From positions 868,001 through 932,000 of the forward strand of contig OZ237754.1 of the NCBI GenBank assembly GCA_965178125.1: a stretch of DNA of 64,000 nucleotides, written 5' to 3'. A model generated the notes under the pieces. It ran no database searches. It saw only the letters and a program-made list of their open reading frames with translations, and was not told the origin of the DNA. The DNA is from Bilabrum cf. latius (Eukaryota). How positions within the stretch are numbered: position 1 is the stretch's first letter; every line of letters begins with the position of its first letter. Positions 42,962 to 64,000 of this stretch are shown here, one piece after another. A program made the translations under genes and the position numbers.

Positions 42962-43026
42962 TCTCACACACCACATACCAGGGGGACCTCCAAATTGGAG
43001 GTCCCCCTGGTATGTGGTGTGTGAGA
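42962..43026. repeat. Perfect terminal palindrome (32-bp arms, 1-nt loop) at the virophage left end
   Basis: TCTCACACACCACATACCAGGGGGACCTCCAA-A-TTGGAGGTCCCCCTGGTATGTGGTGTGTGAGA. Confidence 0.95.
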
Positions 43027-43317
43027 GTAGGGTATTTTTTATGTACATTTTTCTTTTGTTATAAGTAATTCTTTCCATAAAACGGGTAGAGGGTGGAAAT
43101 TTAAGTTGCTGAAAAATCATTTTTTTTGCAGGTGAAATTTTCAACTGCCAAAAATTACGCACTGAGTTACACTGCTACGTTTCACATCTCGGGTTCTATT
43201 CCTCTTGCAGAGGAGAGAAATTTGGGGGTCTCCATATTATTCTGCGGGGTCCCCCACGCGGGGGATGTTCAAAAATTCATTTAATATTGCATTGAGAAAT
43301 CACAGGGATTCTCATTT

Positions 43318-43983
43318 TCATTTTCCATTTTTCACTTTCATTGATTTTAATTTAATTCGCTGTTTCAACGCAGGTGCTGGTTCAGGTGCTGGTGCTGGTT
43401 CAGGTGCTGGTGCTGGTGCTGGTGCTGGTTCAGGTGCTGGTTCAGGTGCTGGTTCAGGTTCTGGTGCTGGTGCCGATCCAGATTCAGGTGCTGGTGCTCC
43501 TTCACTATCTACGGTGCCTAGCATTCGTGGTTTAGAAGCATAAGGCTATGCAAAACTATGCAAGTGTTTCATAATGCTCAGCATTTCCGAACGCTACTTC
43601 TTATCCTCCTTCTGCATCTACACCATTGCATCATACTATTTCTATTGCATCTACATCATTGCAAACATCAGTTGCGTTACCTAATTAGGTTCTTGTGGTG
43701 CTGGTGCTGGTGCTGGTGCTGGTGCTGGTGCTGGTGCTGGTGCTGGTGCTTGATCAGGTTCTGCAGTTCCACCAGATTCACAAAGTGGTGATGTGCCTTC
43801 CGGCTACTTCACCACCGCATGAAATGCTCTGATTATGCTATCCGATTTCTTCCCCTCATGCCACCAATCCGTGCCAATATTGGTTTGCATCCATTTCTTC
43901 ATATCATACTCCGAAACAAGTGATTTGTAACCTTTTCCAAAGTGTTTTTGTAAATATTCTCGTGCTTTCTGTGGGTATCTCAT
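43318..43983 (-). CDS. Virophage protein: N-terminal 'MxYP..HFG..YK.LVSE..W..DWW' domain, PA/EPA repeats, Gln/Met-rich segment (TAG=Gln)
   Basis: ATG at 43983 to TGA at 43318, one frame via TAG. Reads MMQMQQKQYDAMVQMQKEDKKQ with TAG as Gln. N-terminus is paralogous to that of the 45128 ORF. Confidence 0.7.
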
Positions 43984-44369
43984 ACTGATATCCTCTCCCT
44001 TACATGCGCACACGAAATAGGTTCAGGGGAATTCATTTTGTTACCTAAAAGGTTCTGTATACATCTTACTGCCCAATCAAAAAAAAAGTTATTTGGATGT
44101 TGTTCAGAAAAATCTCATGTTGTTCAAAATACTCGGTTTCATAAAAATTTTCAGAACTCAGCCAACTGAAAAAAATATTGATTTTCAATTTTTTTCTAAG
44201 AATGAAAAAATCTCATTTCCTTTGTTTTGAACAACATCCCTACCTTTTCCGACAACAAAACCTTTATTTTGAACAACATTTTGAACAACATAATTATTCG
44301 TAACCAATTATTTTGAACAACATTTTGAACAACAACAAATAAATTGATTAATGCAGTTACTGATATCTT

Positions 44370-44420
44370 ATTTATATTAGATTATAGGATTTTTAAAAAA
44401 TCCTATAATCTAATATAAAT
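44370..44420. promoter_or_regulatory. 25-bp-arm AT-rich palindrome overlapping a TCTA motif and the ATG of the repeat protein
   Basis: ATTTATATTAGATTATAGGATTTTT-A-AAAAATCCTATAATCTAATATAAAT. Confidence 0.6.
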
Positions 44421-45042
44421 GAATTCGAATTTTAATACATGTCCTTGTTGCCAAAAACCGGTCTCAAATGAAGATCTAATTATTCAACCAGATGGTACTC
44501 ACTTTTGGTATAAGAATGGTCAAATACACAGAGATGGTGATCTACCTGCAGTAGTTGGTATGAAGGGTAACTACTGGTACAAGAATGGTAAAATACACAG
44601 AGATGGTGATCAGCCCGCAGAAATTACATTAAATGTACGCGGATACTACAAGAATGGTCAATTACACAGAGATGGCGATCAGCCCGCGTACATGTACAAT
44701 TCAGAAAATAGAAAATATTGGTATAAGAATGGCGTATTGCACAGAGATGGTGATAAACCCGCAATAATTGAAATAGATGGAGATACAAAATGGTACAAGA
44801 ATGGCAAATTACATAGAGATGGTGATAAATACGCAGTAATTAATGAATATGGAAATGAATGGTACAAGAATGGCGAATTGCACAGAGATGGTGATAAACC
44901 CGCAATAATTGAAATAGATGGAGATACAAAATGGTACAAAAATGGTAAATTACACAGAGATGATGATAAACCCGCAGTAATTGAAGCATATGGACGAAAT
45001 GAATGGTACAAAAATGGTGTACAATACCATCCATCCATTTAA
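44419..45042 (+). CDS. Repeat protein with ~7 WYKNGxLHRDGDxPA units (MORN/YwqK-like beta-hairpin repeats)
   Basis: Repeats are directly visible, with an N-terminal CPCC. Ends TAA. Confidence 0.85.
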   Translation: MNSNFNTCPCCQKPVSNEDLIIQPDGTHFWYKNGQIHRDGDLPAVVGMKGNYWYKNGKIHRDGDQPAEITLNVRGYYKNGQLHRDGDQPAYMYNSENRKYWYKNGVLHRDGDKPAIIEIDGDTKWYKNGKLHRDGDKYAVINEYGNEWYKNGELHRDGDKPAIIEIDGDTKWYKNGKLHRDDDKPAVIEAYGRNEWYKNGVQYHPSI

Positions 45043-45127
45043 ACTAGATTGCTTTATAAAAGCTTGGAGCGGAAAAATGAACCGCGTTCACCCTATTTCT
45101 CGCAGGTATAGGAGGGGGAGTATCACA

Positions 45128-47044
45128 ATGATATACCCTACTAAAGCACATGAATACCTATCAACACACTTTGGAACTGATTACAAAACATTAGTTTCAG
45201 AGGCTACTATAAAGCAGTGGATGCGAACACATATTGGTGCAGATTGGTGGCTTGATTACTTGAAAGCAGATAGCATTATAAAAGCGTATCATGCGGTGTT
45301 GAAAAAGCCTACAAGCACTTCAACACTAGATGAACCCAAAACTGCTGCTACTGGTGAAGGTGCAAACCCCAAGATCAAGATCAAGATCAAGATCAACCCC
45401 AAAACCAAAATCTCACTCAAAAAGAAAAAAGGTAAATCTATAATGAGCTCCGCAAAATCGAAACCTCAAGAAATACTAGTTAAACCTATAATAACCGATC
45501 AAACCGCACAGAAAATGGTTGGTGAATTTGTTAATGCAGATCACTACCAGCAGGTAATTGATCATGATTGTGATTGCTACTACTATGATAAATCTGGCAA
45601 GCGCCGTGCTTTGTTTTACTTTCGCCGCAAGGTAATCCCCCAAGCGCATCTGGATACAGCACTAGATAGTTTAAAAACAGAAGCCAAAAGTGCCTCCAAT
45701 ACACGATCCATTGCTGGTGGCGGAATTGGCAAAGGCAAAGTACACAGCATGATTGTTGGCTACTACGATAAACCCCGAATCAGAGATAAACGAGAAATCT
45801 TAGCCAAGAAACTCGTACCCTGCAGAACTACCAGCTATACCAGCAAATACCAAGCCAAATGGAACAACTTAAAACCATTAATTAATTAGGTTGATAAGGC
45901 ATACAGCGAGTTCGAACCAGAACGCCATCACGAACAGCACGGCATGGCTAAAAAAACTCCCGATTACCAAATCAACGATACTGCATTTTCTACCATCACC
46001 GTAAATTACAACTGGCGAACCGCTTGCCACAAGGATTCAGGTGATTATCACAATGGATACAGTGCTGTAGTAGTTGCCGAGGATGGCAAGAATTCTTACA
46101 AGGGCGGATACCTGGGTTTTCCTAAGTTCGGCGTTTGTGTTGATGTTCGCCACGGCGATTTTATCTTAATAGATCCTCACCAGTTGCACTGTAATACAGA
46201 AATAGTGCCAGATGGATCAGATTGGTGCAGATTATCAATGGTTTACTACTACCGAGAAAACATGCAAAAATGTACCCAATCCAAACCTTCTAGTAAAGCC
46301 GCCTCACAAGAATTAATTGATGTAGTTTTACCCAAACGAAAACTCGATCTTAAACTCTGGGTTCGCCCCAAAACCACAGATCAAACTGTAATTGGTGAGG
46401 TGCTTACCAGGAACTCTTACGATAAACCAAAAGTTTAGTTCGAAGTGGGATCTGATCCAAAGGAACGATGGCTAGATCTTGGTGCCAATATCGGCACATT
46501 CGCCTTACTTGCCTTATCGCGGGGGTGCTCTGTTACCTGCTATGAACCAGAACGGGATAACCTTGAAATACTACAAAAAAACCTGGAACTCAACTTTCCT
46601 AAACCTAGGGGTGGATGGAAAATTGTTGAATCAGGGGTTTCTACAAAACCCACTGGAACTCAAAAACTCTACCTGTGCAAAGGAGATTACAACAAATACA
46701 GGCATACCTTGCATCCCGTAAGAGGGCGTACAACTGTTGATATCCCTGTAGAAAATATTTTTGAGGCTTTGGAACGGGCTGATTGCAACTGCATTAAAAT
46801 GGATATCGAGGGTGCTGAAATCGAGATCCTCGAAACACTTAAACCAGCAACTTACCAACACCATGGCATCCAAAAACTGGTGTTAGAATATAGTTTTGAT
46901 GTAGATAGGAGCATCCCCCGTTTCCTACGCATCATCGAAACCTTAAAACAAGCCTTCAAAACCGTGTTTTACACCAAAGTAAAGCCAGATCAGGCTACCT
47001 ATGATTACTTTCCAGCAGCCTGTATGGTATACTGCCAGAATTAA
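45128..47044 (+). CDS. TET/JBP-like 2OG-Fe(II) oxygenase fused to an FkbM-like SAM methyltransferase (638 aa, TAG=Gln)
   Basis: Three ORFs in one frame joined by TAG (45887, 46436). Oxygenase motifs FSTITVNYNWRTACHKDSGD, GGYLGFP, HQLHCNT, RLSMVYYYRE. Methyltransferase motifs WLDLGANIGTF, YEPE, IKMDIEGAE. Confidence 0.8.
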
Positions 47045-47154
47045 ATCCCATGAAAATTAAAATATTAGTGAAATGCCTAGGCATCTACTCAGAGAAATAC
47101 ACATTTTGCTTTTAATCCGTATCAATTTAGTACGGGATTAAAAGGAAAATTACA

Positions 47155-48366
47155 TTACTTTTTCCACGTAAACGTCCATTTGTTTGTACGTGGATTCTTT
47201 TTCCATTCTACTTTGTGCTTCTTTTCAAATGCCTAAACCAGTTTGGGCACATCTTCGATCATGTTTTCATAGCTGTTCCACTCTGGAACCTTGTATCCAA
47301 CCCATCGAACCACAAATCCACGCTCCCCATTAACCACACTAGGGCGCACAATACTCGAAATAATATACTAATCTGGCAAAGTAATTGGATTTTCAACCTC
47401 ATCCACCTTCTGCAATTCCTCTGTAAAATATCTGGTTGGCAATCCTTCTACCTAATAGGACCACGGACTCCACGGCATACGCGGTTTTAACACCTATCTT
47501 ATAGTATACACATCCTTAGACCAGTTTTCACCCCTTTTCTCATTAGATCCCCATCGCAATCGAACCCTTACTTGATCGCCCACTTTGAACCGCTACTCAT
47601 TGGCACGTTCACCTGCATTTTTCTTTATTCTTTTTCTAACTGCATCCACTCCAGAACTCTGTTTGTTCTCCAGATACTCCCTCTCTAAATTATCTGGCGA
47701 TTGCTTGGTTGTATTTTGTGGCGTTTGATTGTATACCCTCAAATAGGCTGCCAAACTATTATCCCAGTTATTCACACCCGAATCCAAGCGATCCGCCTTA
47801 ATCATTCTCTTAATTGTTCCATTAAATCTCTCAACCAATCCATTGGTTTGCGGTTTACCCGCTGTACTCAAGATCTATTTAATTTTCTTGCTTTTTAAAA
47901 ATGCTTTAAATGCTCGATTTACGAACTCACTGCCATTATCACTCTACAACACACTGGGTGGTTGGGGCATCTACTCTAAGATTTGTTTCAAAGCATTCAA
48001 TACGGTTTGCTCTCGCTTATCGGGCATGGCAATTGCGTAAGCTTTCTTACTAAAACCATCGATGGCTGTTAGCAACCATTTCATGCCTCGTGGGGTTTCC
48101 GATGAACTCAAATCCACCAAATCTATTTGCAACTTTTTAAAAGGAGCACTAATTACCTAGCGTTTAATTGAACGAACTTTCTTGGTTGGTTTCATCATTT
48201 GCCATGTTTCTTGCTTTTGCAACCAATCTCTAACCACACGCCGTGGCAAATCAATGCCGTTCTGAATCGCAAACTTGTATAATTTTTCCTCACCTACAAA
48301 GGCTTTTGAACCATAATATAACTCTTTCAACTTCTATAATTCACGTTGCTGATGCTTTGTATCCAT
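47155..48366 (-). CDS. rve (retroviral-type) integrase with C-terminal chromodomain (403 aa, TAG=Gln)
   Basis: DDE triad QIDLVD, L(Q=TAG)SDNGSEF, NGLVERFNGTIK. Followed by FKVGDQVRV. Chromodomain-like YIISSI..FVVRWVGY..W. Ends TAA. Confidence 0.92.
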
Positions 48367-48415: not shown

Positions 48416-49276
48416 ATGCTTAAGCGAAAGCAAATTTTACAATTACTGAAGATAGCCAAGAAACGCAACCCAAGGATCAAAAAATGTGTTAAGGGGTACG
48501 GAAAGTTTACCAAATCGCAATTACAAGCCGTTCTTGAGGCTCCTATGGTATTAGAAACTCTTGAACCTGAAGTTACCAGAATGGGTGGCTCACTGTTTGG
48601 CAAGTTTCGCCAAGGTTTTAACCAAGTTGTTGATAAGGCTAAGAACTTCTTTGGAGTTGATACTAAGAACTTTAATAAAACTAGTTAGCGAACACTAAAA
48701 GAATACGGTAACCGAGTTATTACCCAGATGAAAGTAGCACGAACACCCTTAAGTTCAAGTTTAAATCGATTGCTAAACGTTCTTTCACTAGGGGCAACTA
48801 AGCGAGCCAAACAAAGCTTATAGTACCATTCATTCTACCATCTTGCAATAGCAGTAAAATTACAAGGCGTTGCTACCCCCCTTGTGGTTGAGAAAAACGA
48901 GGCTGTTAACGTTGATAAAACATTCCCCGTAAATAATCTTACTCAATTCCTAAACGTTGATCTAAATGGCAAACAAATCACTTTGAATCAACTGGTACAA
49001 CAAACACTCAAATCCGTGGGCAATAATCGATTTTTCTTGTATCGTGCTTTCAATGATCGCTCAGATGCAGGTAATTGTTAGCGATTTGTTACTGATGTAC
49101 TTCGATCCAATGGTTTATTAACCAGCCAATTGGATCAATTCATCAATTAGAATGTTGAACAGGCAGCATCTACCATACCGCAGTTGTTCAAAAGGGTGGC
49201 GAATGTTGCAACCGATGTTGGTGCATTCGCTAATCGAGTAGTTGGTAGAGGTAAGAAGAAAAAGAAATAGCATTAA
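48416..49276 (+). CDS. Virophage protein with permuted papain-like (His...NCQ) motif (TAG=Gln)
   Basis: One frame via TAG, ending at TAA 49274-49276. Motifs FYHL..VVEKN..Y.AF..NC(Q=TAG)RFV. Basic N-terminus followed by RMGG/SLFG. Confidence 0.6.
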
Positions 49277-49589: not shown

Positions 49590-50894
49590 TTAGTATCCAC
49601 GCAAACGCCTAATACGATCCTATTGAAACTACCTTTCTTGGGCTTCTTTGCCTTGTAACCCGGCACGGCGTTCAGATTTATTGATTCTCCGATGTGATTT
49701 TGGTGCAATTGCTTTCAATCCTTTATCACCGATTACCTTGCGCAATGGAGCTCCAACCAATCCATCAAACAAAAATCGCCCAGCATCCTCAATGATTCCT
49801 TTGCCTTTCATATTCGATTGTTTCACAGCCTTAAATGCCTGTTTCATTGCTTCTCCACGGCTCAATTTAGGATTCTAGCGCCTCATCTATCCAGCTAAAC
49901 GCAATGCCTAGGATTGTAATGTACGATTCCATTTACCCGATTTCGGTGCACCCATACCCTATGTACCCTCCGCTGAACCTAAGTTACCCATTGTGTTTGC
50001 GGTTAACCTATCTGGTTCTGTGGTTTGCCTACTTGATCTGCGTCGTGCAGGAGCTGGTGCAGGAGCAGGAGCAGGAGCTGGTGCAGGTGCAGGAGCAGGA
50101 GCAGGTGCAGGAGCTGGTGTAGGATCATTATCGGAATCACCGCCAGGTCCTGGTCCGCCAGGAGCAACATCAGCAGCCCGAGCACGAGGAGCACGAGCAG
50201 GAGATCCTGCAAAACCTTGTTCCATCTATTCTGCGAGATCAGCTGCTGGTACCAACTATGGCACTGGTATTCGTGCTCCTCGTCTTCGTGCCCGTGCCCG
50301 TGCAGGTGCAGGTGCCGGTTCAGGTACTGAATCAATAATCCAAGGTTCGATATCTACTCTTCGTGGACGCTCTCCCACAGGATTTGAACCCTCTTCTGGT
50401 ATTTCTCTCATTGGATCACGATCCACACGATTGGGATTACGCTTGATTGCATACTACAATGCATCTCGAACTCCATTTTCAATTAGTAACCTTCGTATTG
50501 CCTAATTGCTTCCTCTATTAACATTTAAACGCTTAAACTAGGCTTCTATCTCTTTAAGGCTCTTGGGCAAAATAATATCACCACTATACAAACTCACTTC
50601 TAAGGCATCTATTACTCTCTGCCTACTAGTTGCCGTTCTTGCCCTCTATAACTAGCCCAATAATGCTTTAACCCGCCCAGTTGCCTAATCATTTCTGGTA
50701 CGTTCAAGTTCACTCACCACACCTGCCTTTCTCAATCTCTCTTGATCTTGTTGCTCTTTACGTGCTCGGTTTTCCTGCCTCACACGGCGGTTGTTTTCCT
50801 CCATGTTTTCTCTTCTTTGTTCTGCTAAACCGGAGTATCTCTCAATTGTTAGCTCTTTAAGAATCTTTCGCAACTTTTCATCGCTTTTTGCCAT
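49590..50894 (-). CDS. Arg-rich protein with coiled-coil and PA repeats, possible virion core protein (434 aa, TAG=Gln)
   Basis: ORFs 50685, 49959 and 49629 share one frame joined only by TAG. ATG 50894, TAA 49590. Confidence 0.7.
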
Positions 50895-50932
50895 ATATAA
50901 TAACATTGAAAATATTTTATATACCTATAGTA

Positions 50933-51955
50933 ATGATTTCCACTCGACATACAAAAGATGGTGTTCCTGTTGCACTTGATATGAATCGCAATGATCCAGA
51001 TGTTATATACTACAACCGCAAACCACCTGAAAATGATTCTGATTCTGATGATGATTCTGGTGATGAATCCGATATCAGTGAATCTGATCTAAGGTTGAGA
51101 TACGGTGTTCGTGCCACCAGATACCAGCGACAACTACCAGAACTAAAGAAAAAGTTTAAATAGGAAATGCGGGAAGGAAAGATCCTACATGGAAAATATA
51201 AAAGTAAAAAAGGAACGATTATTCCGTATCCCGATCGAGATGCACGCGATTGCCGAACTGCGTACCATATAATGGGTAAAGCAGGTTCAGGTAAAACTAC
51301 CTGGGTGCTAGAACAAGCCAAAATTATTAGGAAACTATTTAATAAAAAGGTGTATGTGATCAACGGCAAGGATGATGAAAAGCGATTCAAAGAAGCCAAG
51401 TTTCATACCCTCGATATCGATGATCTTATCATTGGCGATAGTTCCGAACGAAAATATCAAGAGGCTAAACTGCGCTACAAAATGCTGGATAAGAGCGAAC
51501 TAGATCCTGAGGAGGTTATTGAAATGAAACTTGCGGTTGAATCCTTGAAGCCAAAGAAAAAGATCAACTATTCGGTAACCGAAGGATTTTTGAAGCTGAT
51601 CAAGAATTCTGTATGGATATTTGATGATGTGGAAGGCGGTGAACTGCAAAACAAAGCCCTGTTCTTGATCAATTATATTCTTACCAAGGGTAGAAGTACC
51701 GAAACCGATATCTTTGTAATTACACACTTACCATCTTGGGGTTAGAATACCCGCACTCTACACAATGAAATTAACATCTATGTAATTTTCTAGCGCAACA
51801 AACCTCGTTAGAATTAGTTTCTAATGGAAAACTATCTGAAATTTAAAGCTAAGGAGATAAAAAAGGTGAAAAGCCTGTTAAGCCGAAACGATTGGGTAGC
51901 CATAAACCAGCAACGCAATTGCTTGATATCACCTCATCAAGTTTGTTTGATATGA
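50933..51955 (+). CDS. FtsK/HerA (A32-like) genome-packaging ATPase
   Basis: Walker A GKAGSGKT, Walker B WIFDD, and ILTKGRS..ITH..G(Q)NTRTLHNE typical of virophage ATPases. Read through TAG to TGA. Confidence 0.9.
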
Positions 51956-51981
51956 TTTTCTAGCATACTACTATAATCATA

Positions 51982-55243: not shown

Positions 55244-56137
55244 ATGAACAACAAATCTTATTAGAACTTAAGTGCACTTAAGTACCTGGGGCAACCAATT
55301 AATATCACTGGTTACAATTTTGCACGACCCGTACTTAAACTGTTTAACGATATCAAATTTCCCGATCGAACCTTGAGATTAGCAGGAACTGCTCGGTTCA
55401 AGGTTCTTTCGTTGTTTGCCTCTGATATTGATTTATTTCAACTGCTTAACAAAAAGGATATCCCGCACTTTGCCACACACATTTCCAACTTGGCAAAAAA
55501 AATGGCACCATCCAAACAAGCCAACCATGCCACCTTTGTTGAATTTAAATCAGGTGGAAGGCATTACACCAGAAAAGAAATGGCAAACCTCTCAACTAAC
55601 CAGAAACTAAAGCAGGAAATCGAGCACAACATCCATCATGATCCGTTCAACAAGGTAGATTTGATTTTTTATGATGGCAAAACTTACGAGGAAATCACCA
55701 TCGTGTACCAATTTGAGGAACTTGCCGATGTAGCAACCATTCTACAAAGCCTTGTTAAGGATGCCAACAAGTATATTAGTTCAGGCAATTTATACAAAGC
55801 CACCAAACGATTGCACAACATCTCCCGTTTGCAAGGCAAACAACCCAACTCACCCGGTCTCAAATCTCTGGAACAGATTATTACCAATCCTATTCTTTCC
55901 ACTCTCAACCTTGCTAAGAGCTAGTTGGAGGCTTACTTGCGAGTACCTACTGGATTTCGCCACAGCACTGCACTCGAATACCTTAAGCAAAGAGTGGGTA
56001 AGGTGATGAAACCCAGATCACTGCGGACACTTGCCAAGCATTTCAAGAATAACACCAACAAATCAATTAAACTAGCCATTACTTAGCTTAAGCGATATTT
56101 GAATCAACTAAGCAGATCCATGATTTAGCAAAAATAA
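55244..56137 (+). CDS. Pol-beta nucleotidyltransferase-like protein
   Basis: LAGTA......ASDIDLF resembles the GS..DxD motif. Directly downstream of MCP. Read through TAG to TAA. Confidence 0.55.
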
Positions 56138-56156
56138 AATCATGCGAAATACTATA

Positions 56157-56435
56157 ATGCTAAGTAACTGGAGCAAATTTATGAAACAACTGTGGTCCAA
56201 AGTTAAGGGCTAGATGAAGTATATCGATGCCGTAAGAATGGCTAAAGAACAAGGATTGTATGATGCTTGGCTATCTAAGCATGGATTATCACGTGCCCCC
56301 AAGAAACGCACTTACAAACGCAAACGCAAGGGTGGGCAAATGGTTTAGGATTAGATGGGCATGGGGTTAGTTGAAGATTAGATGGGTATGGGCTTAGTTG
56401 AAGGCGGTGCTAGCACTCTTAATGATCTATTCTGA
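56157..56435 (+). CDS. Small basic protein (92 aa), candidate DNA-binding core protein with GG sites
   Basis: MLSNWSKFMKQLWSKVKGQMKYIDAVRMAK..KKRTYKRKRKGG..QMGMGLVE (x2)..EGG. Requires TAG=Gln; ends TGA. Confidence 0.65.
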
Positions 56436-57017
56436 TTCATTACAATTCTTCCCAAGCCATTGTTTGTGTTTTTGGCTTTTCCTGTGCCTTGATAAACAAT
56501 AACGAGAAATAACTGATCCGCATTCACACGTAACTTTTTCCTTTCTTTTATTCATAATCTTGGATTTATTCATTTCACGGTATTTCTTACCGTATTCCTA
56601 TCTCTCATCTCGGTTTTTAAAGTAGTATTGTTGACTATATTTCAACCTTTTTGTTCTGTTCTATTCGCGATAAGCCTGTTGGTACTCACCGCAATCATCC
56701 GTTGGAATTCCTGTTGGAATATAAATATTCAAACAGGGGTAGTTTTGAATGTAAAAGCGTTCCTTTGATTGAAGTTCATGTTTCGATTCACATGGAAAAT
56801 GCTCAACAATTTGAATTTTTACCTTACTTTGATCACGTTCAAACAGATTAAATGAGGAACACTTGTTACGTTTTCTCTATAGATAGTGTTTGAAGTGGGC
56901 TCTATGGCTACGTAATCGTTGTTCTAAGCTCGTGGTGGTGCTTCCATAATATGGCAACAGTACTGGGCTCTCCGTAGAGTAGAGCATATAAATCTTTCCT
57001 TTTCTGTAATTAGGCAT
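56394..57017 (-). CDS. GIY-YIG endonuclease with C-terminal zinc finger
   Basis: MPNYRKGKIY..YYGSTT..LEQRLRSH..KERFYI..CLN, and C-terminal CECG..RHRKSQKH. Absent from the ORF track because of TAGs. Confidence 0.85.
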
Positions 57018-57063: not shown

Positions 57064-57711
57064 ATGTCTTGCGATAAACAAGAATTGTATGAATAGTTTA
57101 AGAAAATCGGGCAGCAAAAGTTTAGTGCTCCCCACCAACAGCAAATCTATCTACAATATATACGCTCAGTATTGTTTCCTGCTGGTGATCCTGAACCTGA
57201 TTCGGAATCTGATAGCGATACTGATAGTGATAGTGATAGCGAGAGTGATTCCAATTTGATTATCGAATCAAAACCTGCTACTCCTCCGGCAGTACCCGCT
57301 TCACCACAACCCAAACCTAAACCTGAGCCAAAATCAAAACCCGAACCCGAACCCGAACCCGAACCTGAGATTGATCCCGAACCTGTGAAAGTTGATCCTG
57401 CTGTTGATCTCAGCCCACCTAAACTGGAACGCCAAAAAAGGGTTGTTATTGTGCCCGGTTTTGGTGATCCTGATCCTGAACCCGAACCAGTGGTTCAAAA
57501 GAGTGATCGTGAGGATTTCAGATTCATGGTTCGAGATGGATCTGAAAAAGTGTATTTCGGCACTCCCACCATTCTAACCCTAAAAGAAGCAATTGATGGC
57601 AAGGTTTGTAGCCAACGCAAAGCGGTTTCTAGGGTTAATCGATATTTAGCCTAGTTCAACTAGGCAACACCAAGAGGCAAATGGGAGCACCAATACTATC
57701 TCAATCAATAA
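57064..57711 (+). CDS. Acidic Asp/Ser- and Pro/Glu-rich hypothetical protein
   Basis: ATG 57064 to TAA 57711 in one frame via TAG. Low-complexity DS and PE tracts. Confidence 0.65.
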
Positions 57712-57743: not shown

Positions 57744-58118
57744 ATGCACAATTATGAATATATTGAAATTAAACCATCTCAAATCCATGGACATGGCGTG
57801 TTTGCTCGATGCAAGATTGCCAAGGGCACTAAATTAGCCTATTTTTACGGCATACCCATGAAACCCAAAGATATCATGCTCAAATACGGCAACTACCGTT
57901 TTACATATCGGCGCCCATTTCAAAGCACATGGATTTGCAGCAGAGAAACACCCAATCTAATCAATTTTGTTAACTCTGTGGGCTTTGGTAAATCCAAAGG
58001 AATGAAAGCAAATGTTATTCTCAAAAACAGATGGCTAGTTCCCATCCGAGATATCCAAGCTGGTGAAGAATTACTGCTCGAATATCCTAAGGGATACTGG
58101 AAGCACGGCGATGATTAA
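57744..58118 (+). CDS. Stand-alone SET-domain lysine methyltransferase (vSET-like)
   Basis: IKPSQIHGHGVFA..IAKG, FVNS (for NHS), RDIQAGEELLLEY. 124 aa. Confidence 0.85.
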   Translation: MHNYEYIEIKPSQIHGHGVFARCKIAKGTKLAYFYGIPMKPKDIMLKYGNYRFTYRRPFQSTWICSRETPNLINFVNSVGFGKSKGMKANVILKNRWLVPIRDIQAGEELLLEYPKGYWKHGDD

Positions 58119-58158: not shown

Positions 58159-58809
58159 TTAGGCTGTTGGTGGGTACATCATCCAGTTAAACTGGAAATC
58201 GTTGCCTCCATGTGCGCCTGTAAGATGCACTGTAAATTCACCATCACCCGCAGTTACGTGGGTAAAATCAACTCCGCCTGTGGGTACACTTGTGGGTGTT
58301 AGATGCACGTGATGATCAGATGTGCAGCCTGCTGCAGCCACAACTAGTGTTTGACCACCTCCGCTCCAGGTTTCCTATCCTCTTAGTGCAGGTACGTTGT
58401 TTGCAGTTACATCGCCCTAAACTATGATGTTACCAGATCCAGATCCACCTGTAATGCGAACACCTGCACCGGCTGAATTGGCTCCAAATCTTACCTCGCC
58501 CGGGCTAAAGAACATCTATCCTGTGCCCTGATCGCCCCATCCTATGATACCGAAGTTACCCTCACTGAAACTTGAATCGCCCTCGATGCTTCTGGCAACC
58601 ACATTTCCACCTAATTCCATATTACCTGTTGAACTTACTGCAAGAAGTTGAGTGGTTACATCGGATGCCACATTCTCAGAGTTAATTATAAAATTTCCAC
58701 CTTTAGCTGAAAAGGAAGCCCCTGAAGTAGAGCCTGATGTTTCAGTGCAAAGTAGTTTGTTTACGTAGATTTGTTCATCGTTTGGTTCGTTAAAAGTACT
58801 AGCTGACAT
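58159..58809 (-). CDS. Gly/Ser/Thr-rich beta protein, possible fibre or spike
   Basis: Two ORFs in one frame joined via TAG. Composition suggests a beta-rich fibre. Confidence 0.5.
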
Positions 58810-58856
58810 AGCTTATAACTTAAACTACAAAAAAATAATTTAATTCTTAATCCTAT

Positions 58857-59477
58857 ATGGTAGAACCCAACACCGTAATTATAGGGGCATCTGTTGCCCC
58901 ATGGATTTACAAAGCAGGTTGCATGATCTTAGATTGGCTCTAGAAGCCCCGCTCACAACGCCGAAAGTTAGTGCTTCTTCTTCCTTAGAAAGCACTTAAA
59001 AGCACTATATGCAAACGCTTAACCAGTAGCAACCCCAATGTTCGTTTATATGATTTAGATGAAGTTGTATTAGCCCGAGCATCTGCCGAAGATGTAGTTA
59101 AACTTAAGTTAGCTGAGCACTGCGATAACAACGCTTCCGAGTTACTCAGGTATAAATACGTTTAGAGTGCCATTGATGAAATTAAAGCAACTTGGTTAAA
59201 GGATCGCAATCACCGTGCTATTTTTGTTACCAGTGATGCTTCTGTAGTTGCCTCCATCTTCAAACCCACCTCGATTGGTGTTGCTATGCCGAGCGAACAA
59301 TTTCACCAGCAACTTATCCAAAAATTAAGCCCTGAGGAGCAAACTGTTGCCAACCGATCACATGCCCAGTTTAGAGATTTATTTTATCGCACTGATGATC
59401 CATGTTCGGTCTACGATTCACTGCAAGATCTAGCAAATATCATCATTGCTCACTATGGCTTGAACTACAGACCTTAA
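58857..59477 (+). CDS. Hypothetical protein, possibly a degenerate P-loop kinase fold
   Basis: One frame via TAG. LLLPQKALKSTICKRL..YDLDE weakly resembles a P-loop kinase. Confidence 0.5.
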
Positions 59478-59528
59478 GCCTTTAAGCCTTTAAGAATAAT
59501 TATTTTCTCCACCAGGATTATAGCAAAT

Positions 59529-59948
59529 ATGCCAAAACCACTCAAAGTAGTAATAAAGAAAAGAGAACCCGCTCCTAGCCACAACCCAATCGCCTTGATT
59601 CACCCCGAAACCTCGAATACCGTTCAGGAACTGCACCAGTAGTACACCGAATCGTTCGAGCAGAACCAGCAGGAAATCAAGAACCTCAAACTAGAAGCCC
59701 GTCGGTTGCTACGCAAGGTACGCAAATAGTGCCCTGAAATTCATGAACAGATTAGAGAACTTCGAACTAACCTCAAATAGCAAAAACACAACCTAGAACA
59801 ACTACAACAGGAAATCAAAGCGCAATCTGATTTGCTTCGATCGAGCGCACCCGAGGAATACCAAAGGCTGGATAAGATTCGAGAAGAATCCAAAAAGTTA
59901 CAAAAGCAACTCCAATACGATCAAAATGTTGCCGATTTTCTAAATTAA
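59529..59948 (+). CDS. Coiled-coil protein
   Basis: Q/E/L/K-rich heptads in one frame via TAG, ending TAA. Confidence 0.65.
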
Positions 59949-59961
59949 TTTCTATTTTTAC

Positions 59962-60523
59962 TTTTAATCCTGTACTAAATTGATACGGATTAAATGCAAA
60001 ATATTCTCTGTCTAGATACTCACCCAGAGAAAATCCTGTTTTCATTAATTAGATAGTTTGGTTTTATACCGCCCCCGATCAGTTTGTAAACATCTACGTG
60101 ATCTAAATGCGGTTTCTGCAAATGACCCCTAACTCCCAACACAATTAGATTTTCCACCAATCGAATGCGAATGCTAAAAGCACCCGATTTGTGAGTTTGT
60201 CGCTTTGCAATCCAGATATCATTATCAATATGCTGTTGGTTCAACGGAGATGAGTACACTGTTTCATAAACAGTATTTCCAGCCTCGTGCTACACCTTTT
60301 TCCCATTTCGTGCTATTTCAACAAACAAATCCTAGATTTGTTCCATTCGAATGCTTTCAATTCCTTTACTACTATCGCTATTGTTCATTTATATTTTACC
60401 ATAGATAATTTCAAATCATATTATTCCATTCCCATTTCCATTCCCATTTACCTTTAATCCCGTACTAAATTGATACGGATTAAATGCAAAATATTCTCTG
60501 TCTAGATACTCACCCAGAGAAAA
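59962..60523. terminator. Repeated ~70-bp hairpin element (59962-60032, 60453-60523; inverted partial copy ~47085-47142)
   Basis: TTTAATCC(T/C)GTACTAAATTGATACGGATTAAATGCAAAAT.. is an imperfect stem-loop located at gene 3' ends, including between convergent genes. Confidence 0.55.
60020..60388 (-). CDS. Hypothetical protein
   Basis: ATG 60388 extends ORF 60020-60259 through two TAGs. TCTA upstream. Confidence 0.55.
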
Positions 60524-60524
60524 C

Positions 60525-60812
60525 TCAATTTGAATCAACTTTCAGCCATTCCCATGGTTTCCTCATGGGTAGCCAATCTACTGGTACCTCCTCCACCTTG
60601 TAGTGCTTTGATACACCTTCTTCAGCATTCTTAACCTTATAAGTTCCTTTCTTGATTAGGTTAACTGTTAACCTACTGATTGGATGCAATTTAAACAAAT
60701 CCGAATGCATTTCTGCCAACAGCTTTAGTACCGTATTGCAGTTTCTAACCTAATACACATGCTAACTTTTATCTAGTTCTATCACCTTTAACTTTACATT
60801 ATGTTTACTCAT
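60525..60812 (-). CDS. Hypothetical protein
   Basis: ATG 60812 extends ORF 60525-60719 through two TAGs. Confidence 0.55.
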
Positions 60813-60887
60813 TTCTATAATATATCCTATATTTTTTAATTCATTTTTTTAAAAAATAGTTTAAGAACTTTCCTAACTCTATACTAT

Positions 60888-61175
60888 ATGGTAAATAAAT
60901 GCACTCACACCTCTCAAACCTCAATCGTTCTTGAAAACAGTGTTCATTATGGAAAACAAGTATGTTCCCATTGTGGCAAATGGCTAAAATGGCTACCCAA
61001 TCCTAAAACTGCTATCCTACTCTCAAGGCAAAAACAATGCATCCAAGATTTACTACTCCTGGATTCTCTACCTGATCACTATTGTAAATTTATCTAGGGC
61101 ATATCCCAATCCAAACGCCTCTCTCCTAAACAGCAAAAATATCTTTTCGCTCTACATTCTTAGTTCATTAAGTAA
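60888..61175 (+). CDS. Zn-ribbon protein
   Basis: C..H..HYGKQVCSHCGKWLKWLP, and C-terminal LSPKQ. Read through TAG to TAA. Confidence 0.65.
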
Positions 61176-61577
61176 ACCAAATAATATTTGGTTTAGTTCA
61201 GAGGGATCGAACATTTATGAACATTTATGAACATTAAAATGTTCCTTACTTTAATTCGGATTTTATTTGTTTTTATAGGGGTAGAACGTTTTGAACATTA
61301 AAAAAATATAAATATAAAAAAAAACGTTTTTCACACATTTTTGAAATTAAAAAATGGTGAAAATAAGGTTTTTTACAAATCAAACCCACCCTCAAAAACG
61401 CTCATTTTTTTTACTTGATCATCGTAGGGAATTTCTGTACGAAATCCGAGGAACGTTAAAATGAGCGTTTTTAGAGTTAATTGCAATGATCAGGCTTCCG
61501 ATCTAAACACAAGTTAATTTGATTATAATCAACTTTTTAAAAAACTGATTTAAAAAAATTTAGTGGAATATAATATA

Positions 61578-64000
61578 ATGCAAATTTCGATAACCGATTT
61601 AGTAAAACCTCTACCTGTGGGATCAACAGTACAAACAAAAATTGTAGTGGATGTAAAGCGCTCCAAAATGGTGGAAAAGCATCTCAACCGTATTTTGTTT
61701 TCTTTAATGGCAGGATCAGATCTGGTAGATATTCGAGCCGAAATTACCAAAACCCAGAATATCTTGAAACGGCATATCGGGCGATCAAAAAAAGCAACCA
61801 TCAATCGAAAGGTGGATTTTACATGCACTAGAGGATTCGGGCGGTTTTACAGTGATGATGGGTTTGTAAATATTACACGACCGATTAGGCATTTCTTATG
61901 CCAAGATAATTACATTGATCTTGATGTTTGTAACTGCCACCCTGTTATTGCTGAACAGTTGTACCCGGTTTTAACTAACAAACCTTCAGTTGCCATTAAG
62001 AGGCTAAACAATGAACGCAAGCGCATATTTGCCGAATTCTTAGAGGATCACAAATTACCCAAGGATAGCATCAAGAAACTAGGATTTGCTTGTTTATACG
62101 ATGGTAGCATTTAGGGTACTGCAAAACAAATTGGAATCGAGGATCTTCAAGAGCTCACTCACAGATGCAAACAAAACTACGATTTATTTGTTAAAGCCAA
62201 ACGGGAGTTTGCTGAAATCATGCAGCATGTAAAACAAATAATGGGTTCTGATTGGGAGTTGTTACCTTGTAATCCCGGTAAAGAAAATACTGATAGAGCC
62301 GATGTAGGCAAACTTTCAAGTTTCTTTCAGCACATTGAACGGTAGATAACCGAGCATATTGCTTTCATTCTGAATGGTAAGTTTAAGTGCAAGGTGGCTG
62401 ATTATTAGTACGATGGCGTGTTTTTGCGTGATGTTTAGAGCAAAACGGTAAACACATGGATTCCAGCTATCGAACAGTTCATCTATGAAAAGACAGGTTT
62501 CCGAGTAAAACTGGAAACAAAACGAATGGAAAACTATCAAGTGGATGCTATTTTAGAATCCGATCAAGAAGCACCTGTACCCAAAGAGGTTTAGGATTAC
62601 TTGGATGAAAAAGAACAGCAGGTAATTAAGCATATTGAAAGTAACAATCCTTTTGATCCGTTCTTTCATAATTCGATGGATACAGAACGTGTTCCGATAA
62701 AACTACATAGCATCATGGATTACAGTAAATTAAACAAGTTACGATAGTAGTATTTCGAGAACTTTTGTGTAAAGATAGAAAATCCTGCGATGTTTGTACG
62801 TGTTTTTCCAGAATCAGGAGATGCTGTAACTATCAATCGCCAAAATCTGTTAGTTAGTTTTGAGAACTTACGGCATGGCAATAAAAACCAACCTTGGATT
62901 ACCGAATGCTGGTTAAAATCAGCCTCTATCAAAACCTACACGAAAACTACGTTTGTACCATACACTATCAATCCGCCACCTAACCACATGGTAGAAAACA
63001 AATTCAACATGTTTAAGGGATTCATGCATTCAGTAACACCACCTGATAACTTCAAGATGGATCAAACCAAAATCCAGCCGATTCTAGATCACTTGCACGA
63101 TATTTGGTGTGGTGGTGATTAGATGTGTTACAAGTATATTCTTGATTGGATGGCATCGATTGCTCAAACACCATGGAAAAAATCCTTGGTGGCTGTTGTT
63201 TTGGTTTCAATCAGAGAGGGTGCAGGTAAGAATTCAATCATGGAGTTTTTGAAAGAACATGTGTTTGGCAATTAGTACATTCGTGATGTGAGTAACATTA
63301 ATGATTTAACCAGATAGTTTAACATGGACGGAATGAAAACCATCTTTACAGTTTGCAATGAGATTGGATCACAGGGTGGTGCTTACCGAAATGCAGATTC
63401 CTTAAAGGATATGATTACTCGCAAAACGCAGCGGATTGAAACCAAAGGAGTAGATCCAATTCAAATGAGCTGTTTTAATAATTTTATGCTCACATCACAG
63501 TATTGGAAATGGGTCGCCAAGATTTCCAGTAGTGATCGCAGGTACTTTTGTTTAGATGCAGATAACAAACGATGTAACGATGTTGATTATTTCACTAATC
63601 TGTTTAAGTTTTTAACTCCTGAATCAGGCAAACATTTTTGGTATTACCTGTTATCCCGTGATCTTTCAACAGTAAACCTAAGAAATATTCCAATGACTGA
63701 TTTAAAGCGTGATATGGCATCCTTGAGCTATGATCCATTCATTAAAACGCTGATTGAATTAGAAAATTAGAGAGTTGATGGAGAAGATCGATATACGGCT
63801 CAAGAGTTAATGCTGCTATACAATCATGTAAATGAAAAGGATAGCATAAAATCTACCAGATCGTTTAGTAAACAATTCAAGAAATGGAGCAACGATTTCT
63901 TTAAGGTTTGCTAGATTGGTAAAACACGAACTAGGGGGTTCTTAATTACACCCGAGGGCAACCTTGAATTGATCAGGTAGGTGTTAAAAGATCCTGTTTG
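61578..64000 (+). CDS. TVpol (PolA-like primase-polymerase) fused to D5/SF3 helicase, 3'-truncated by window
   Basis: GRFY..RPIRHFL..YIDLDVCNCHP (motif A), FQHIERQI, DY(Q=TAG)YDGVFL (motif C). Helicase EGAGKNS, VCNE, LKDMIT, DRRYF. One frame via TAG. Confidence 0.85.

What the first reader, a model, noticed from the sequence alone, without database searches (positions are those of the whole stretch)
42962..64000. Endogenous virophage recoded to its host's TAG=Gln code
Seen: MCP (about nine TAGs), penton, protease, ATPase, integrase, GIY-YIG and TVpol-helicase are intact only if TAG is read as Gln. TAG sits at conserved Gln-type positions (integrase LQSDNG, NCQ.F). Despite abundant CAA codons, no in-frame TAA occurs, which argues against random decay. 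Inference: the virus is adapted and restricted to recoded hosts, and its giant helper virus must also work in a TAG=Gln cytoplasm. Standard gene callers would dismiss such elements as pseudogenised.
Basis: partly seen in the sequence, partly recalled or inferred. Interest (0 to 1): 0.9.

Follow-up and report, generated by a model that had tools for sequence, protein, structure and literature searches.

The report
Virophage that reads TAG as glutamine
A mavirus-like virophage sits inside a protist chromosome, and its genes make sense only if the stop codon TAG is read as glutamine, the same unusual reading that the host's own genes need.

Summary
From 42962 to the window end, a ~40% GC block sits in 62% GC eukaryotic DNA. 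With TAG read as sense, ORFs of 100 aa or more cover 85.5% of it, against 28% under the standard code. The 22 ORFs carry 101 in-frame TAGs and end in TAA (15) or TGA (6), never TAG.

The MCP matches mavirus MCP over its full length (E 1e-33) and the penton matches the mavirus penton (E 5e-15). An rve integrase, an A32-like ATPase, a GIY-YIG nuclease and a D5-type helicase are also present.

TAG means Gln. An 82%-identical integrase homolog has Q at 7 of the 10 TAG positions. Column log-odds over 19 TAG columns give Q +16.6 and the runner-up K -1.0.

The host uses the same reading. Five large host ORFs hold 30 in-frame TAGs, which align to CAG in a paralog wherever the context is conserved.

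Contigs from public runs suggest several slightly different copies. The differences listed between them are mostly synonymous (22 of 29), and one variant lacks the GIY-YIG gene.

The helper giant virus, the right end of the element, the protease and the 'TVpol' domain remain untested. Nonstandard-code endogenous viruses are known, so this is a new variant of a known kind.

The parts
35813..42961 (-). Host gene for a TSP1-repeat giant protein, cut at its 5' side by the insertion. It holds 10 in-frame TAGs.
   Evidence: Its paralog 9162-16670 has Pfam TSP1 domains. Paralog DNA homology stops at 42961.
42962..43026 (.). Perfect 65-nt palindrome (32-nt arms, 1 central base) at the very start of the inserted DNA.
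   Evidence: I4. Fold energy -71.8 kcal/mol, z -12.4. Short-read contigs of three runs stop inside it, at 42989 or 42991.
43027..43317 (.). AT-rich non-coding left terminal region. Part of it (up to about 43261) is also joined to GC-rich DNA elsewhere.
   Evidence: Sequence. Loose end at 43254 in X1 and X2, and higher depth in the bin 42669-43335.
43318..43983 (-). ORF of 221 aa with 8 TAGs. Its N-terminal domain is a paralog of the N-terminus of the Tet/JBP gene, and it contains Pro-Ala repeats.
   Evidence: Inverted repeat I1 43777-43990 / 45121-45334.
44099..44333 (.). Cluster of 7 copies of TTTGAACAAC (2 on the - strand, 5 on the + strand). Possibly origin iterons or regulator binding sites.
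   Evidence: 14 matches in the window against 3.7 expected, 7 of them in this stretch.
44419..45042 (+). MORN-like repeat protein, 207 aa, no TAG.
   Evidence: Weak Pfam MORN_2 match, below the curated cut-off.
45128..47044 (+). Tet/JBP 2OG-Fe dioxygenase fused to an FkbM-type methyltransferase, with 2 TAGs. The ORF is open from 44990; the start at 45128 is chosen by paralogy with the ORF at 43318.
   Evidence: Pfam PF12851 8e-25 and PF05050 1.7e-7. Start choice.
47103..47152 (.). Conserved hairpin, with further copies at 59953-60033 and 60447-60523. Each copy lies just 3' of a gene, as a terminator or polyadenylation signal would.
   Evidence: (I2, I3, D6).
47155..48366 (-). rve (retroviral-type) integrase with a chromodomain-like C-terminus, 10 TAGs.
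   Evidence: Pfam PF00665 1.7e-19. 168 homologs, many of which carry PF00385. Alignment.
48416..49276 (+). ORF of 286 aa, unknown function, with a 'GNCqRF' motif. 5 TAGs.
   Evidence: No family match.
49590..50906 (-). ORF of 438 aa, basic, with Pro-Ala repeats. 14 TAGs.
   Evidence: No family match.
50933..51955 (+). Packaging ATPase (A32/FtsK-HerA-like; the GKAGSGKT Walker A motif is seen in the translation). 5 TAGs.
   Evidence: PHROG 2666 (terminase large subunit) 6e-8. Pfam Pox_A32 and ATPase_2 matches fall below their curated cut-offs.
51952..52524 (+). Putative maturation cysteine protease, inferred from its position between the ATPase and the penton and from His/Cys motifs. 3 TAGs.
   Evidence: No sequence match. 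Translation.
52553..53461 (+). Penton (minor capsid) protein, 2 TAGs.
   Evidence: PDB 6g41, the mavirus minor capsid protein, E 5e-15, query residues 28-297 against chain residues 36-305 of 307.
53493..55220 (+). Major capsid protein, virophage type, 9 TAGs.
   Evidence: Pfam PF22031 3.8e-15. PDB mavirus MCP 6g45 E 1.1e-33 over residues 38-558; Sputnik V20 E 1.8e-9. 243 homologs in 1.84 billion representatives.
55244..56435 (+). Two ORFs of unknown function: 55244-56137 (297 aa, 4 TAGs) and 56142-56435 (97 aa, 4 TAGs).
   Evidence: For the 297-aa ORF, no family match above cut-off; the 97-aa ORF was not scanned.
56394..57017 (-). GIY-YIG endonuclease, 4 TAGs. It is absent from a variant copy, as expected of a free-standing homing-type insertion.
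   Evidence: Pfam PF01541 6.7e-9. Joint 56436->57056 in X1 and X2. GIY-YIG genes lie beside related integrases in 8 metagenome loci.
57064..57711 (+). ORF of 215 aa with acidic Asp/Ser and Pro/Glu repeats. 3 TAGs.
57744..58118 (+). SET-domain protein, 124 aa, no TAG.
   Evidence: Pfam PF00856 6.2e-5, 23.8 bits against a cut-off of 22.4.
58159..61175 (.). Six small ORFs of unknown function: 58159-58809 (-), 58857-59477 (+), 59529-59948 (+), 60020-60388 (-), 60525-60812 (-) and 60888-61175 (+). Each has 2-3 TAGs.
   Evidence: For the five that were scanned, no family match above cut-off; 60525-60812 was not scanned.
61578..64000 (+). Replication protein with a D5-type (DUF5906) helicase C-terminal half and an unassigned N-terminal half. 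13 TAGs. It runs off the end of the window.
   Evidence: Pfam PF19263 5.1e-12. PHROG 1156 (DNA primase) 1.9e-16. N-terminal half unresolved.

Best explanation
The block from 42962 to beyond 64000 is an integrated virophage (provirophage) of the mavirus branch. It carries a capsid morphogenesis module (ATPase, putative protease, penton, MCP), a retroviral-type integrase, a helicase-based replication protein, and accessory genes (Tet/JBP-methyltransferase, SET, GIY-YIG). It lies in the chromosome of a GC-rich protist whose translation system reads UAG as glutamine and keeps UAA and UGA as stops.

Shown here: the virophage genes use TAG as an ordinary Gln codon (29% of all Gln codons). The host genes do so too (8%).

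Inferred mechanism: the integrase put the element into a host exon. The element is translated by the host's UAG-decoding tRNA-Gln. Because about 100 sense TAGs are spread over 20 of 22 genes, it can make its proteins only in cells with this code. CAG-to-TAG changes are silent in this host, so TAG accumulated by ordinary synonymous drift in an AT-rich genome.

The element appears to be present in several slightly different copies that diverged under purifying selection. This points to a working virus lineage rather than a fossil.

Whether it is reactivated by, and parasitises, a giant virus is inferred from its family and was not tested.
For: - Identity. MCP: Pfam MCP_V20_C 3.8e-15, mavirus MCP 6g45 E 1.1e-33 over residues 38-558 of 575, Sputnik V20 E 1.8e-9. 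Penton: mavirus 6g41 E 5e-15. Integrase, GIY-YIG, helicase and ATPase.
- Open frames. Cover by ORFs of 100 aa or more is 85.5% with TAG as sense, 28% under the standard code, 47% with TAA as sense and 39% with TGA as sense. There are 101 in-frame TAGs, and stops are TAA 15 and TGA 6.
- TAG=Gln, integrase. At the 10 integrase TAG positions, homolog P0151 (82% identical) has Q 7, E 2 and H 1.
- TAG=Gln, MCP. At the 9 MCP TAG columns, Q makes up 9.1% of residues in 54 homologs. This is like columns where the query has CAA or CAG (9.8%) and unlike all columns (3.8%).
- TAG=Gln, combined. Summed column log-odds over 19 TAG columns: Q +16.6, next best K -1.0.
- Control. Of 39 metagenomic integrase relatives with an unbroken frame, 38 have no in-frame TAG.
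- Host code. Five host ORFs hold 30 TAG, 291 CAG and 53 CAA, and all five end in TGA. In paralog alignments, 18 columns hold a TAG. One has TAG on both sides. At the other 17, the partner is CAG in 5, all in conserved contexts; the other 12 show varied residues in diverged contexts.
- Integration. Host homology ends at 42961. Host-side contigs of X1, X2 and X5 run 28-30 nt into the palindrome.
- Activity. Element contigs are 2.2-4.5 times deeper than host-flank contigs in X1, X2 and X5. Of 29 listed coding differences between copies, 22 are synonymous and 7 are not. A variant copy lacks the GIY-YIG gene.
Against: - No contig from the public runs bridges the palindrome, so the continuity of host and element rests on the source assembly plus the shared 32-nt arm.
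- The right end lies outside the window, so terminal inverted repeats, target-site duplication and completeness could not be checked.
- Part of the left terminal region (up to about 43261) is joined to other GC-rich DNA in X1 and X2. The true left boundary of the virophage could therefore be about 300 nt further in.
- The protease is not confirmed by any sequence search.
- The ATPase Pfam matches are below the curated cut-offs.
- No tRNA gene lies in the window, so no CUA-anticodon tRNA-Gln was seen there.
- Contig depth is only a rough guide to copy number (caveat printed).
- Only 34 variant sites in the element were listed, and 89 more rows were not shown.
- The TCTA motif, recalled as the CroV/mavirus late promoter core, is not enriched upstream of the genes: 6 of 22 against a 14% background. 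Nothing here points to a particular helper virus.
Confidence: 0.85

Rival explanations
1. The element is a dead, pseudogenised virophage insertion. Its TAGs are nonsense mutations that accumulated after insertion, for example by C-to-T deamination of CAG.
For: Under the standard code every core gene is broken. A close integrase homolog carries Q, not TAG, at 7 of the 10 positions, so those TAGs could be derived from CAG or CAA. Among variant sites, C>T plus G>A (41) outnumber T>C plus A>G (27) of 124 changes in X2.
Against: The same process would turn CAA into TAA and CGA into TGA. Yet 179 CAA codons remain and no TAA or TGA interrupts frames that match homologs end to end. There are no frameshifts. 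Only TAG-as-sense restores dense coding. Host genes in the same window also need TAG as sense. Differences between copies are 22 synonymous to 7 non-synonymous.
Confidence: 0.03
2. The virophage is not integrated. The contig is an assembly chimera that joins host DNA to a free or episomal linear virophage genome at a palindrome, a fold-back artefact.
For: The junction is a perfect 65-nt palindrome. No public-run contig crosses it, and element depth is 2.2-4.5 times host depth, as an episome might give.
Against: Host-side contigs of three runs from two coded organisms carry 28-30 nt of non-host sequence directly after 42961. That sequence is the exact reverse complement of the element's first bases, so element-derived DNA is physically attached to the truncated host gene. 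An rve integrase is encoded. De Bruijn contigs are expected to break at a palindrome longer than the word size (inference).
Confidence: 0.07
3. The element is a domesticated or defence-only provirophage. The host keeps it intact by selection, but it no longer forms virions or spreads horizontally.
For: The frames are intact and there is an excess of synonymous differences. The same junction is present in two coded organisms, A and B.
Against: Several diverged copies and a presence/absence polymorphism of a homing-type GIY-YIG gene look like ongoing mobility. The insertion destroys a host exon. The full capsid module is retained. None of these points excludes the rival.
Confidence: 0.15

Closest known systems
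Mavirus and the endogenous mavirus-like elements (EMALEs) of Cafeteria.
   Same: MCP and penton are homologous over their full length. The gene order ATPase-protease-penton-MCP is the same. There is an rve integrase with a chromodomain-like tail. It is a low-GC element in a high-GC protist genome, apparently in several copies.
   Different: It uses the TAG=Gln code. The closest full-length MCP among 1.84 billion representatives is only 30% identical. No protein-primed PolB was found among the 20 of 22 ORFs scanned in the 21 kb seen; a helicase-based replication protein is present instead. Its cargo is a Tet/JBP-methyltransferase and a SET gene.
Endogenous Polinton-like/Maverick viral elements of Streblomastix strix that use the host's TAA/TAG=Gln code (Bellas et al. 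2023, PMC10120064; passages read).
   Same: An integrated small DNA virus shares the non-standard code of its protist host. The authors read this as a sign of long association.
   Different: Those MCPs cluster with parabasalid Polinton-like elements, not with virophages, and both TAA and TAG are reassigned. Here the MCP is of the virophage type and only TAG is reassigned, with TAA as the main stop.
The UAG=Gln, UAA=stop nuclear code of Iotanema spirale (Panek et al. 2017, PMC5304391; abstract read); NCBI table 15.
   Same: The same codon table is inferred here: TAG=Gln, with TAA and TGA as stops.
   Different: The host here is a 62% GC organism with TSP1-repeat proteins. Its identity was not determined. 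TAA as a stop is shown only for the element; all five host ORFs end in TGA.
Code-15 (TAG=Gln) crAss-like phages (PMC9523058; abstract seen in a search listing only).
   Same: A virus whose genes carry in-frame TAG read as Gln.
   Different: By that abstract, those phages can use a code different from that of their bacterial hosts. Here virus and host share the code.
Virophages that carry suppressor-type tRNAs (Paez-Espino et al. 2019, PMC6905037; passage read), and giant-virus MAGs that annotate better under alternative codes, code 15 among those tested (PMC13524828; passages read).
   Same: Both hint that virophage and giant-virus systems exist in hosts with reassigned stop codons.
   Different: Those are indirect signals: an ochre tRNA, or gene-calling scores. 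Here the sense TAGs are seen directly in virophage core genes next to recoded host genes. No tRNA is encoded in the 21 kb seen.

Membership tests
Virophage (Maveriviricetes, mavirus branch) | Virophage-type double jelly-roll major capsid protein | tested here: met
   Pfam PF22031 at 56.2 bits against a cut-off of 27. Mavirus MCP 6g45 E 1.1e-33 over nearly the full length; Sputnik V20 E 1.8e-9.
Virophage (Maveriviricetes, mavirus branch) | Penton (minor capsid) protein | tested here: met
   Mavirus minor capsid protein 6g41 E 5e-15, residues 28-297 against 36-305 of 307.
Virophage (Maveriviricetes, mavirus branch) | FtsK-HerA/A32-type packaging ATPase | tested here: inconclusive
   PHROG 2666 (terminase large subunit) 6e-8. 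Pfam Pox_A32 at 16.9 bits and ATPase_2 at 22.7 bits are both below their cut-offs. A Walker A motif, GKAGSGKT, is visible in the translation.
Virophage (Maveriviricetes, mavirus branch) | Adenain-like maturation cysteine protease | tested here: inconclusive
   The ORF 51952-52524 sits between the ATPase and the penton and has His and Cys motifs, but it has no Pfam, PDB or PHROG match.
Virophage (Maveriviricetes, mavirus branch) | Replication depends on a co-infecting giant virus | not testable with these tools
   No giant-virus sequence lies in the window. The recalled TCTA late-promoter core is not enriched: 6 of 22 upstream regions against a 14% background.
Endogenous provirophage (EMALE-like) | rve integrase and host DNA flanking the element | tested here: met
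   PF00665 1.7e-19. The left junction lies at 42961/42962 inside a host exon. The right junction is outside the window.
Endogenous provirophage (EMALE-like) | Terminal inverted repeats and target-site duplication | not testable with these tools
   The right end lies beyond 64000, and no inverted copy of the left end is in the window.
Endogenous provirophage (EMALE-like) | Protein-primed family B DNA polymerase (as in mavirus, recalled) | tested here: not met
   No PolB family was found among the 20 of 22 ORFs scanned with Pfam. The replication gene is a DUF5906/D5-type helicase protein. The unseen right part could still hold a PolB.
Polinton/Maverick or Polinton-like virus | Polinton-type MCP (not virophage-type) with PolB | tested here: not met
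   The MCP and penton match the virophage (mavirus, Sputnik) proteins specifically.
Genetic code with TAG=Gln only (table 15 type) | TAG is a sense codon read as Gln | tested here: met
   Integrase: Q at 7 of 10 positions in the 82%-identical homolog. Log-odds Q +16.6 against K -1.0 over 19 columns. Host paralogs: of the 17 TAG columns with a non-TAG partner, 5 have CAG, all in conserved contexts.
Genetic code with TAG=Gln only (table 15 type) | TAA and TGA remain stops | tested here: met
   Element: 15 TAA and 6 TGA stops, with C-termini that coincide with those of homologs. Reading TAA or TGA as sense does not restore dense coding. Host: 5 of 5 ORFs end in TGA, and TAA was not observed either way.
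Genetic code with TAG=Gln only (table 15 type) | A tRNA-Gln with anticodon CUA and an altered eRF1 in the host | not testable with these tools
   No tRNA lies in the window, and no genome is held for it.

The most novel reading that the evidence does not exclude
This may be an active, multi-copy virophage lineage that lives entirely behind a UAG=Gln 'code wall' in a protist with the rare UAG-only reassignment. Four things would follow.

1. A giant virus that also tolerates this code must circulate in the same host.
2. The lineage crossed from standard-code hosts fairly recently. Its closest integrase relative, 82% identical, has 36 Gln and no TAG.
3. It is now trapped, because about 100 codons would have to revert together for it to leave.
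4. TAG density works as a residence clock. It marks the Tet/JBP-methyltransferase/MORN cargo (TAG is 2 of 31 Gln codons, against 99 of 322 elsewhere, p 0.003) as a recent import.

The perfect 65-nt palindrome at the terminus could be the footprint of a hairpin-ended linear genome.
Probability: 0.3. Interest if true: 0.8.

Novelty: new variant of a known kind. Interest (0 to 1): 0.64.

Why it matters
Virophages and their integrated forms are seen as a heritable defence of protists against giant viruses. Surveys call their genes with the standard code and count interrupted capsid genes as decayed or misassembled.

This element shows that a complete virophage can look fully broken and still be intact under another code. 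Two fragmentary MCP hits elsewhere in public data may be related elements of the same kind.

It also gives a natural test of whether a code change isolates a host from viruses. Here a virus has followed its host across the change, and a close relative without TAG gives a handle on how and when.

Finally, it flags a GC-rich eukaryote with the rare UAG-only reassignment. It predicts that a giant virus compatible with that code exists.

Tried and rejected
- Close relatives of the MCP: word-based protein search, none at near length; at shorter lengths only two fragments, P0002 and P0017. IMG/VR scans with the MCP, with P0001 and with P0151 found nothing.
- JGI metagenome scans: the integrase alone found nothing. 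The MCP alignment A2 was too diverged to give search patterns. The integrase alignment gave 80 loci, all at 41% identity or less and all short. None carried an MCP, so there was no synteny to compare.
- No whole genome is held for this window. Earlier scan notes held nothing.
- tRNA and Rfam scans of the window found nothing.
- Promoter motif: the recalled TCTA core is not enriched, and no other strong upstream k-mer was found.
- N-terminal half of the replication protein: no Pfam hit at E up to 5, no PDB sequence hit, and a single-sequence AlphaFold model with pLDDT 38.5 that was too poor to search with. 'TVpol' stays unconfirmed.
- Protease: no Pfam, PDB or PHROG match.
- Expression: no RNA holder was listed among the runs. 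Expression is therefore untested.
- Junction bridging: none of the listed contig pieces crosses 42989-43000.
- The host organism was not identified; names in the run table are coded.
- Literature: five searches found no report of a virophage with reassigned TAG. The terms were virophage with genetic code and UAG; stop codon reassignment; alternative genetic code; polinton, ciliate and genetic code; and non-canonical genetic code. Supplements could not be opened. Those of PMC10120064, PMC6905037 and PMC13524828 may list such elements or code-15 giant viruses.

Full report
**1. What is there**

The window is 62% GC eukaryotic DNA up to about 42.9 kb. From there to its end it is about 40% GC.

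Under the standard code the low-GC block holds only short ORFs, the longest 302 aa. With TAG read as Gln it resolves into 22 closely packed ORFs on both strands.

ORFs of 100 aa or more that start at ATG cover the block as follows:

| Reading | Cover |
|---|---|
| Standard code | 28% |
| TAG as sense | 85.5% |
| TAA as sense | 47% |
| TGA as sense | 39% |
| Shuffled sequence, any of the four readings | 2-19% |

The 22 ORFs (6265 codons) hold 101 in-frame TAG, 73 CAG and 179 CAA. The 21 closed ORFs end in TAA (15) or TGA (6), and none ends in TAG.

**2. What it is**

- The 575-aa protein at 53493-55220 matches Pfam MCP_V20_C. It matches the solved mavirus major capsid protein 6g45 at E 1.1e-33 over residues 38-558, including the C-terminal tail. 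It matches Sputnik V20 at E 1.8e-9.
- The protein at 52553-53461 matches the mavirus penton 6g41 at E 5e-15, almost end to end.
- Upstream lie an A32/terminase-like ATPase and a 190-aa ORF in the place where virophages keep their maturation protease. That ORF has no sequence match, so the protease call is an inference from gene order.
- Also present are an rve integrase (PF00665 1.7e-19), a GIY-YIG nuclease, a SET-domain protein, a Tet/JBP dioxygenase fused to an FkbM methyltransferase, and a replication protein that is still open at the window end (807 aa within the window). Its C-terminal half is a D5-type helicase: DUF5906 5.1e-12 and PHROG 'DNA primase' 1.9e-16.
- No family B polymerase was found among the 20 of 22 ORFs scanned.

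A full HMMER scan of 1.84 billion representative proteins gave 243 MCP homologs. The best full-length one is only 30% identical. This is therefore a deep branch on the mavirus side of the virophages.

**3. TAG means glutamine in the element**

The integrase has a homolog, P0151, that is 82% identical, 406 aa long and called without any stop. At the ten TAG positions P0151 has Q seven times, E twice and H once. At the H position most other homologs have Q.

In an alignment with 54 full-length MCP homologs, Q makes up 9.1% of residues at the nine TAG columns. The figure is 9.8% at columns where the query has CAA or CAG, and 3.8% over all columns.

Summed column log-odds over all 19 TAG columns rank Q first at +16.6 nats and K second at -1.0.

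As a control, 45 of the 80 metagenomic integrase loci were examined. Of these, 39 have an unbroken frame, and 38 of the 39 have no in-frame TAG.

TAA is a true stop in the element. The MCP, integrase and penton all end at TAA where their homologs end.

**4. The host uses the same reading**

Five large host ORFs in the window are open only with TAG as sense. Together they hold 30 TAG, 291 CAG and 53 CAA, and all five end in TGA.

Two pairs of these ORFs are paralogs. Their alignments have 18 columns that hold a TAG:

- One column has TAG on both sides.
- Of the other 17, five have CAG on the other side. These are the ones in conserved contexts, such as RSYDSQ, TGEQR, CVQGQC, TLTQQ and SAAQR.
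- The remaining 12 lie in diverged stretches and align to varied residues.

TAG is 8% of Gln codons in the host genes and 29% in the element. This is what mutation pressure would give in an AT-rich genome where CAG-to-TAG is silent (inference).

**5. Decay is excluded**

If C-to-T damage had turned CAG into TAG without selection, it would also have turned CAA into TAA and CGA into TGA. No TAA or TGA interrupts any frame, and 179 CAA codons remain. There are no frameshifts, since the proteins match their homologs end to end.

Public-run contigs carry slightly different versions of the element. Of the 34 variant sites listed inside it, 5 are intergenic, 22 are synonymous and 7 are non-synonymous. 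Another 89 rows were not shown. That ratio indicates purifying selection.

**6. Integration and copies**

DNA homology between the host TSP1-repeat gene and its paralog ends exactly at 42961. The next 65 nt (42962-43026) form a perfect palindrome, followed by AT-rich element DNA. The host exon is therefore truncated.

Host-side contigs of runs X1, X2 and X5 (two coded organisms) extend 28-30 nt into the palindrome and stop there, and none of the listed pieces crosses it. Stopping at a palindrome longer than the word size is expected of word-based assembly, so the continuity itself rests on the source assembly.

Depths, as the tool's contig figures (a rough measure of copy number at best):

| Run | Element contigs | Host flank |
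|---|---|---|
| X2 | 105-134 | about 48 |
| X1 | 90-98 | 17-22 |
| X5 | about 7 | 2 |

One joint (56436 to 57056, with 17 other letters in between) describes a variant that lacks exactly the GIY-YIG gene between its two neighbours. This fits a free-standing homing-type endonuclease. GIY-YIG genes also sit beside related integrases in 8 metagenome loci.

A loose end at 43254 shows that the leftmost ~300 nt are also joined to other GC-rich DNA. I cannot explain this. The stretch may be a terminal repeat shared with other elements, or a separate repeat.

**7. How it most likely works**

Shown: this is a mavirus-type virophage genome attached to host DNA. TAG is decoded as Gln in both the element and the host. 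TAA and TGA act as stops in the element. The frames are intact and the copy differences are biased toward synonymous changes.

Inferred:

- The rve integrase inserted the genome.
- Its proteins are made by host ribosomes with a host UAG-reading tRNA-Gln, since the 21 kb seen encodes no tRNA.
- The lineage can express its capsid only in cells with this code.
- Like its relatives, it is mobilised during infection by a giant virus, which must itself tolerate UAG read-through.

Nothing in the window identifies that helper. The recalled TCTA late-promoter core is not enriched.

Three copies of a conserved hairpin lie just 3' of genes. They could be transcript-end signals of the kind recalled for mimivirus and Sputnik. 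That is only a lead.

**8. Comparison with what is known**

Endogenous virophages are known. Endogenous Polinton-like elements that share the TAA/TAG=Gln code of Streblomastix strix were reported by Bellas et al. 2023 (passages read).

A virophage survey noted an ochre-suppressor tRNA as a hint of recoded hosts (passage read). A 2026 giant-virus catalogue found MAGs that annotate better under alternative codes, with code 15 among those tested (passages read).

The UAG=Gln code with UAA kept as a stop is documented for Iotanema spirale (abstract read).

Five full-text searches found no report of a virophage with sense TAG. Supplements could not be read.

The finding is therefore a new variant of a known kind. 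It is a bona fide virophage, with all its core genes seeded with sense TAG, in a host with the rare UAG-only reassignment.

**9. Extra leads**

- P0151 has 36 Gln and no TAG. At the element's TAG share of 29%, chance would give this with a probability of about 4e-6 (my arithmetic). A closely related lineage therefore probably lives under the standard code. The DNA of P0151 could not be fetched, so this stays an inference.
- Two short MCP fragments in other data sets look like pieces of related MCP genes. P0002 is 91% identical and starts at the first Met after the last TAG. P0017 is 68-69% identical and covers the N-terminal 81-84 aa. The cause of their truncation is unknown.
- TAG is rare in the MORN and Tet/JBP-methyltransferase genes: 2 of 31 Gln codons, against 99 of 322 in the rest (Fisher p 0.003). 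This suggests a more recent acquisition of that cargo.

**10. Verdict**

Confidence in the main explanation is 0.85. Interest is 0.64.

Noticed in passing
window 18383-24458: A 6-kb tandem satellite of about 123-124-bp units (49 copies, 97% matches) with a strong T-over-A skew lies in the host part of the window.
   Followed up: partly
window 9162-16670 (-) and 35813-42961 (-); 27383-30241 (-) and 31926-34949 (+): The host region holds two pairs of large paralogous genes. One pair encodes TSP1-repeat giant proteins (1415 of 2392 aligned residues identical). The other encodes DUF5703-domain proteins (870 of 946 identical) in head-to-head orientation. All appear free of introns over thousands of codons.
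   Followed up: partly
window 3-4964 (+): A host ORF of 1653 aa with 11 sense TAGs has weak C-terminal matches to WHH/colicin-DNase type nuclease domains. Both are below the Pfam cut-offs.
   Followed up: no
window 42962-43026 and 43027-43261: A perfect 65-nt palindrome lies at the host/element junction. The ~300 nt after the junction reach higher depth, and in other contigs they are joined to different GC-rich DNA at about 43261. The cause is unexplained. It may be a terminal repeat, a hairpin-end footprint or a separate repeat.
   Followed up: partly
window 47103-47152, 59953-60033, 60447-60523: Three copies of a conserved hairpin (stem AATCCGTA / TACGGGATT) each lie just downstream of a gene's stop codon. 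They may be transcript-end signals.
   Followed up: partly
window 44099-44333 and 44370-44420: Seven copies of TTTGAACAAC, in two orientations, fall within 235 nt. They are followed by a perfect 25-nt-arm palindrome that ends at the ATG of the MORN-like gene (I6). This may be an origin or a control region.
   Followed up: partly
window 56394-57017: The GIY-YIG gene is missing, cleanly between its neighbours, in a variant copy seen in runs X1 and X2 (joint 56436->57056). This is a presence/absence polymorphism typical of homing endonuclease genes.
   Followed up: partly
window 44419-47044: The MORN-like and Tet/JBP-methyltransferase genes use TAG far less than the rest of the element: 2 of 31 Gln codons against 99 of 322, p 0.003. 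This is what a more recent acquisition would look like.
   Followed up: partly
window 43318-43983 (-) and 45128-45334 (+): The first ~66 residues of two divergently placed genes are paralogous, through an inverted duplication that is 72% identical at the DNA level (I1). Several element proteins carry GC-rich Pro-Ala or Pro-Glu repeat inserts.
   Followed up: no
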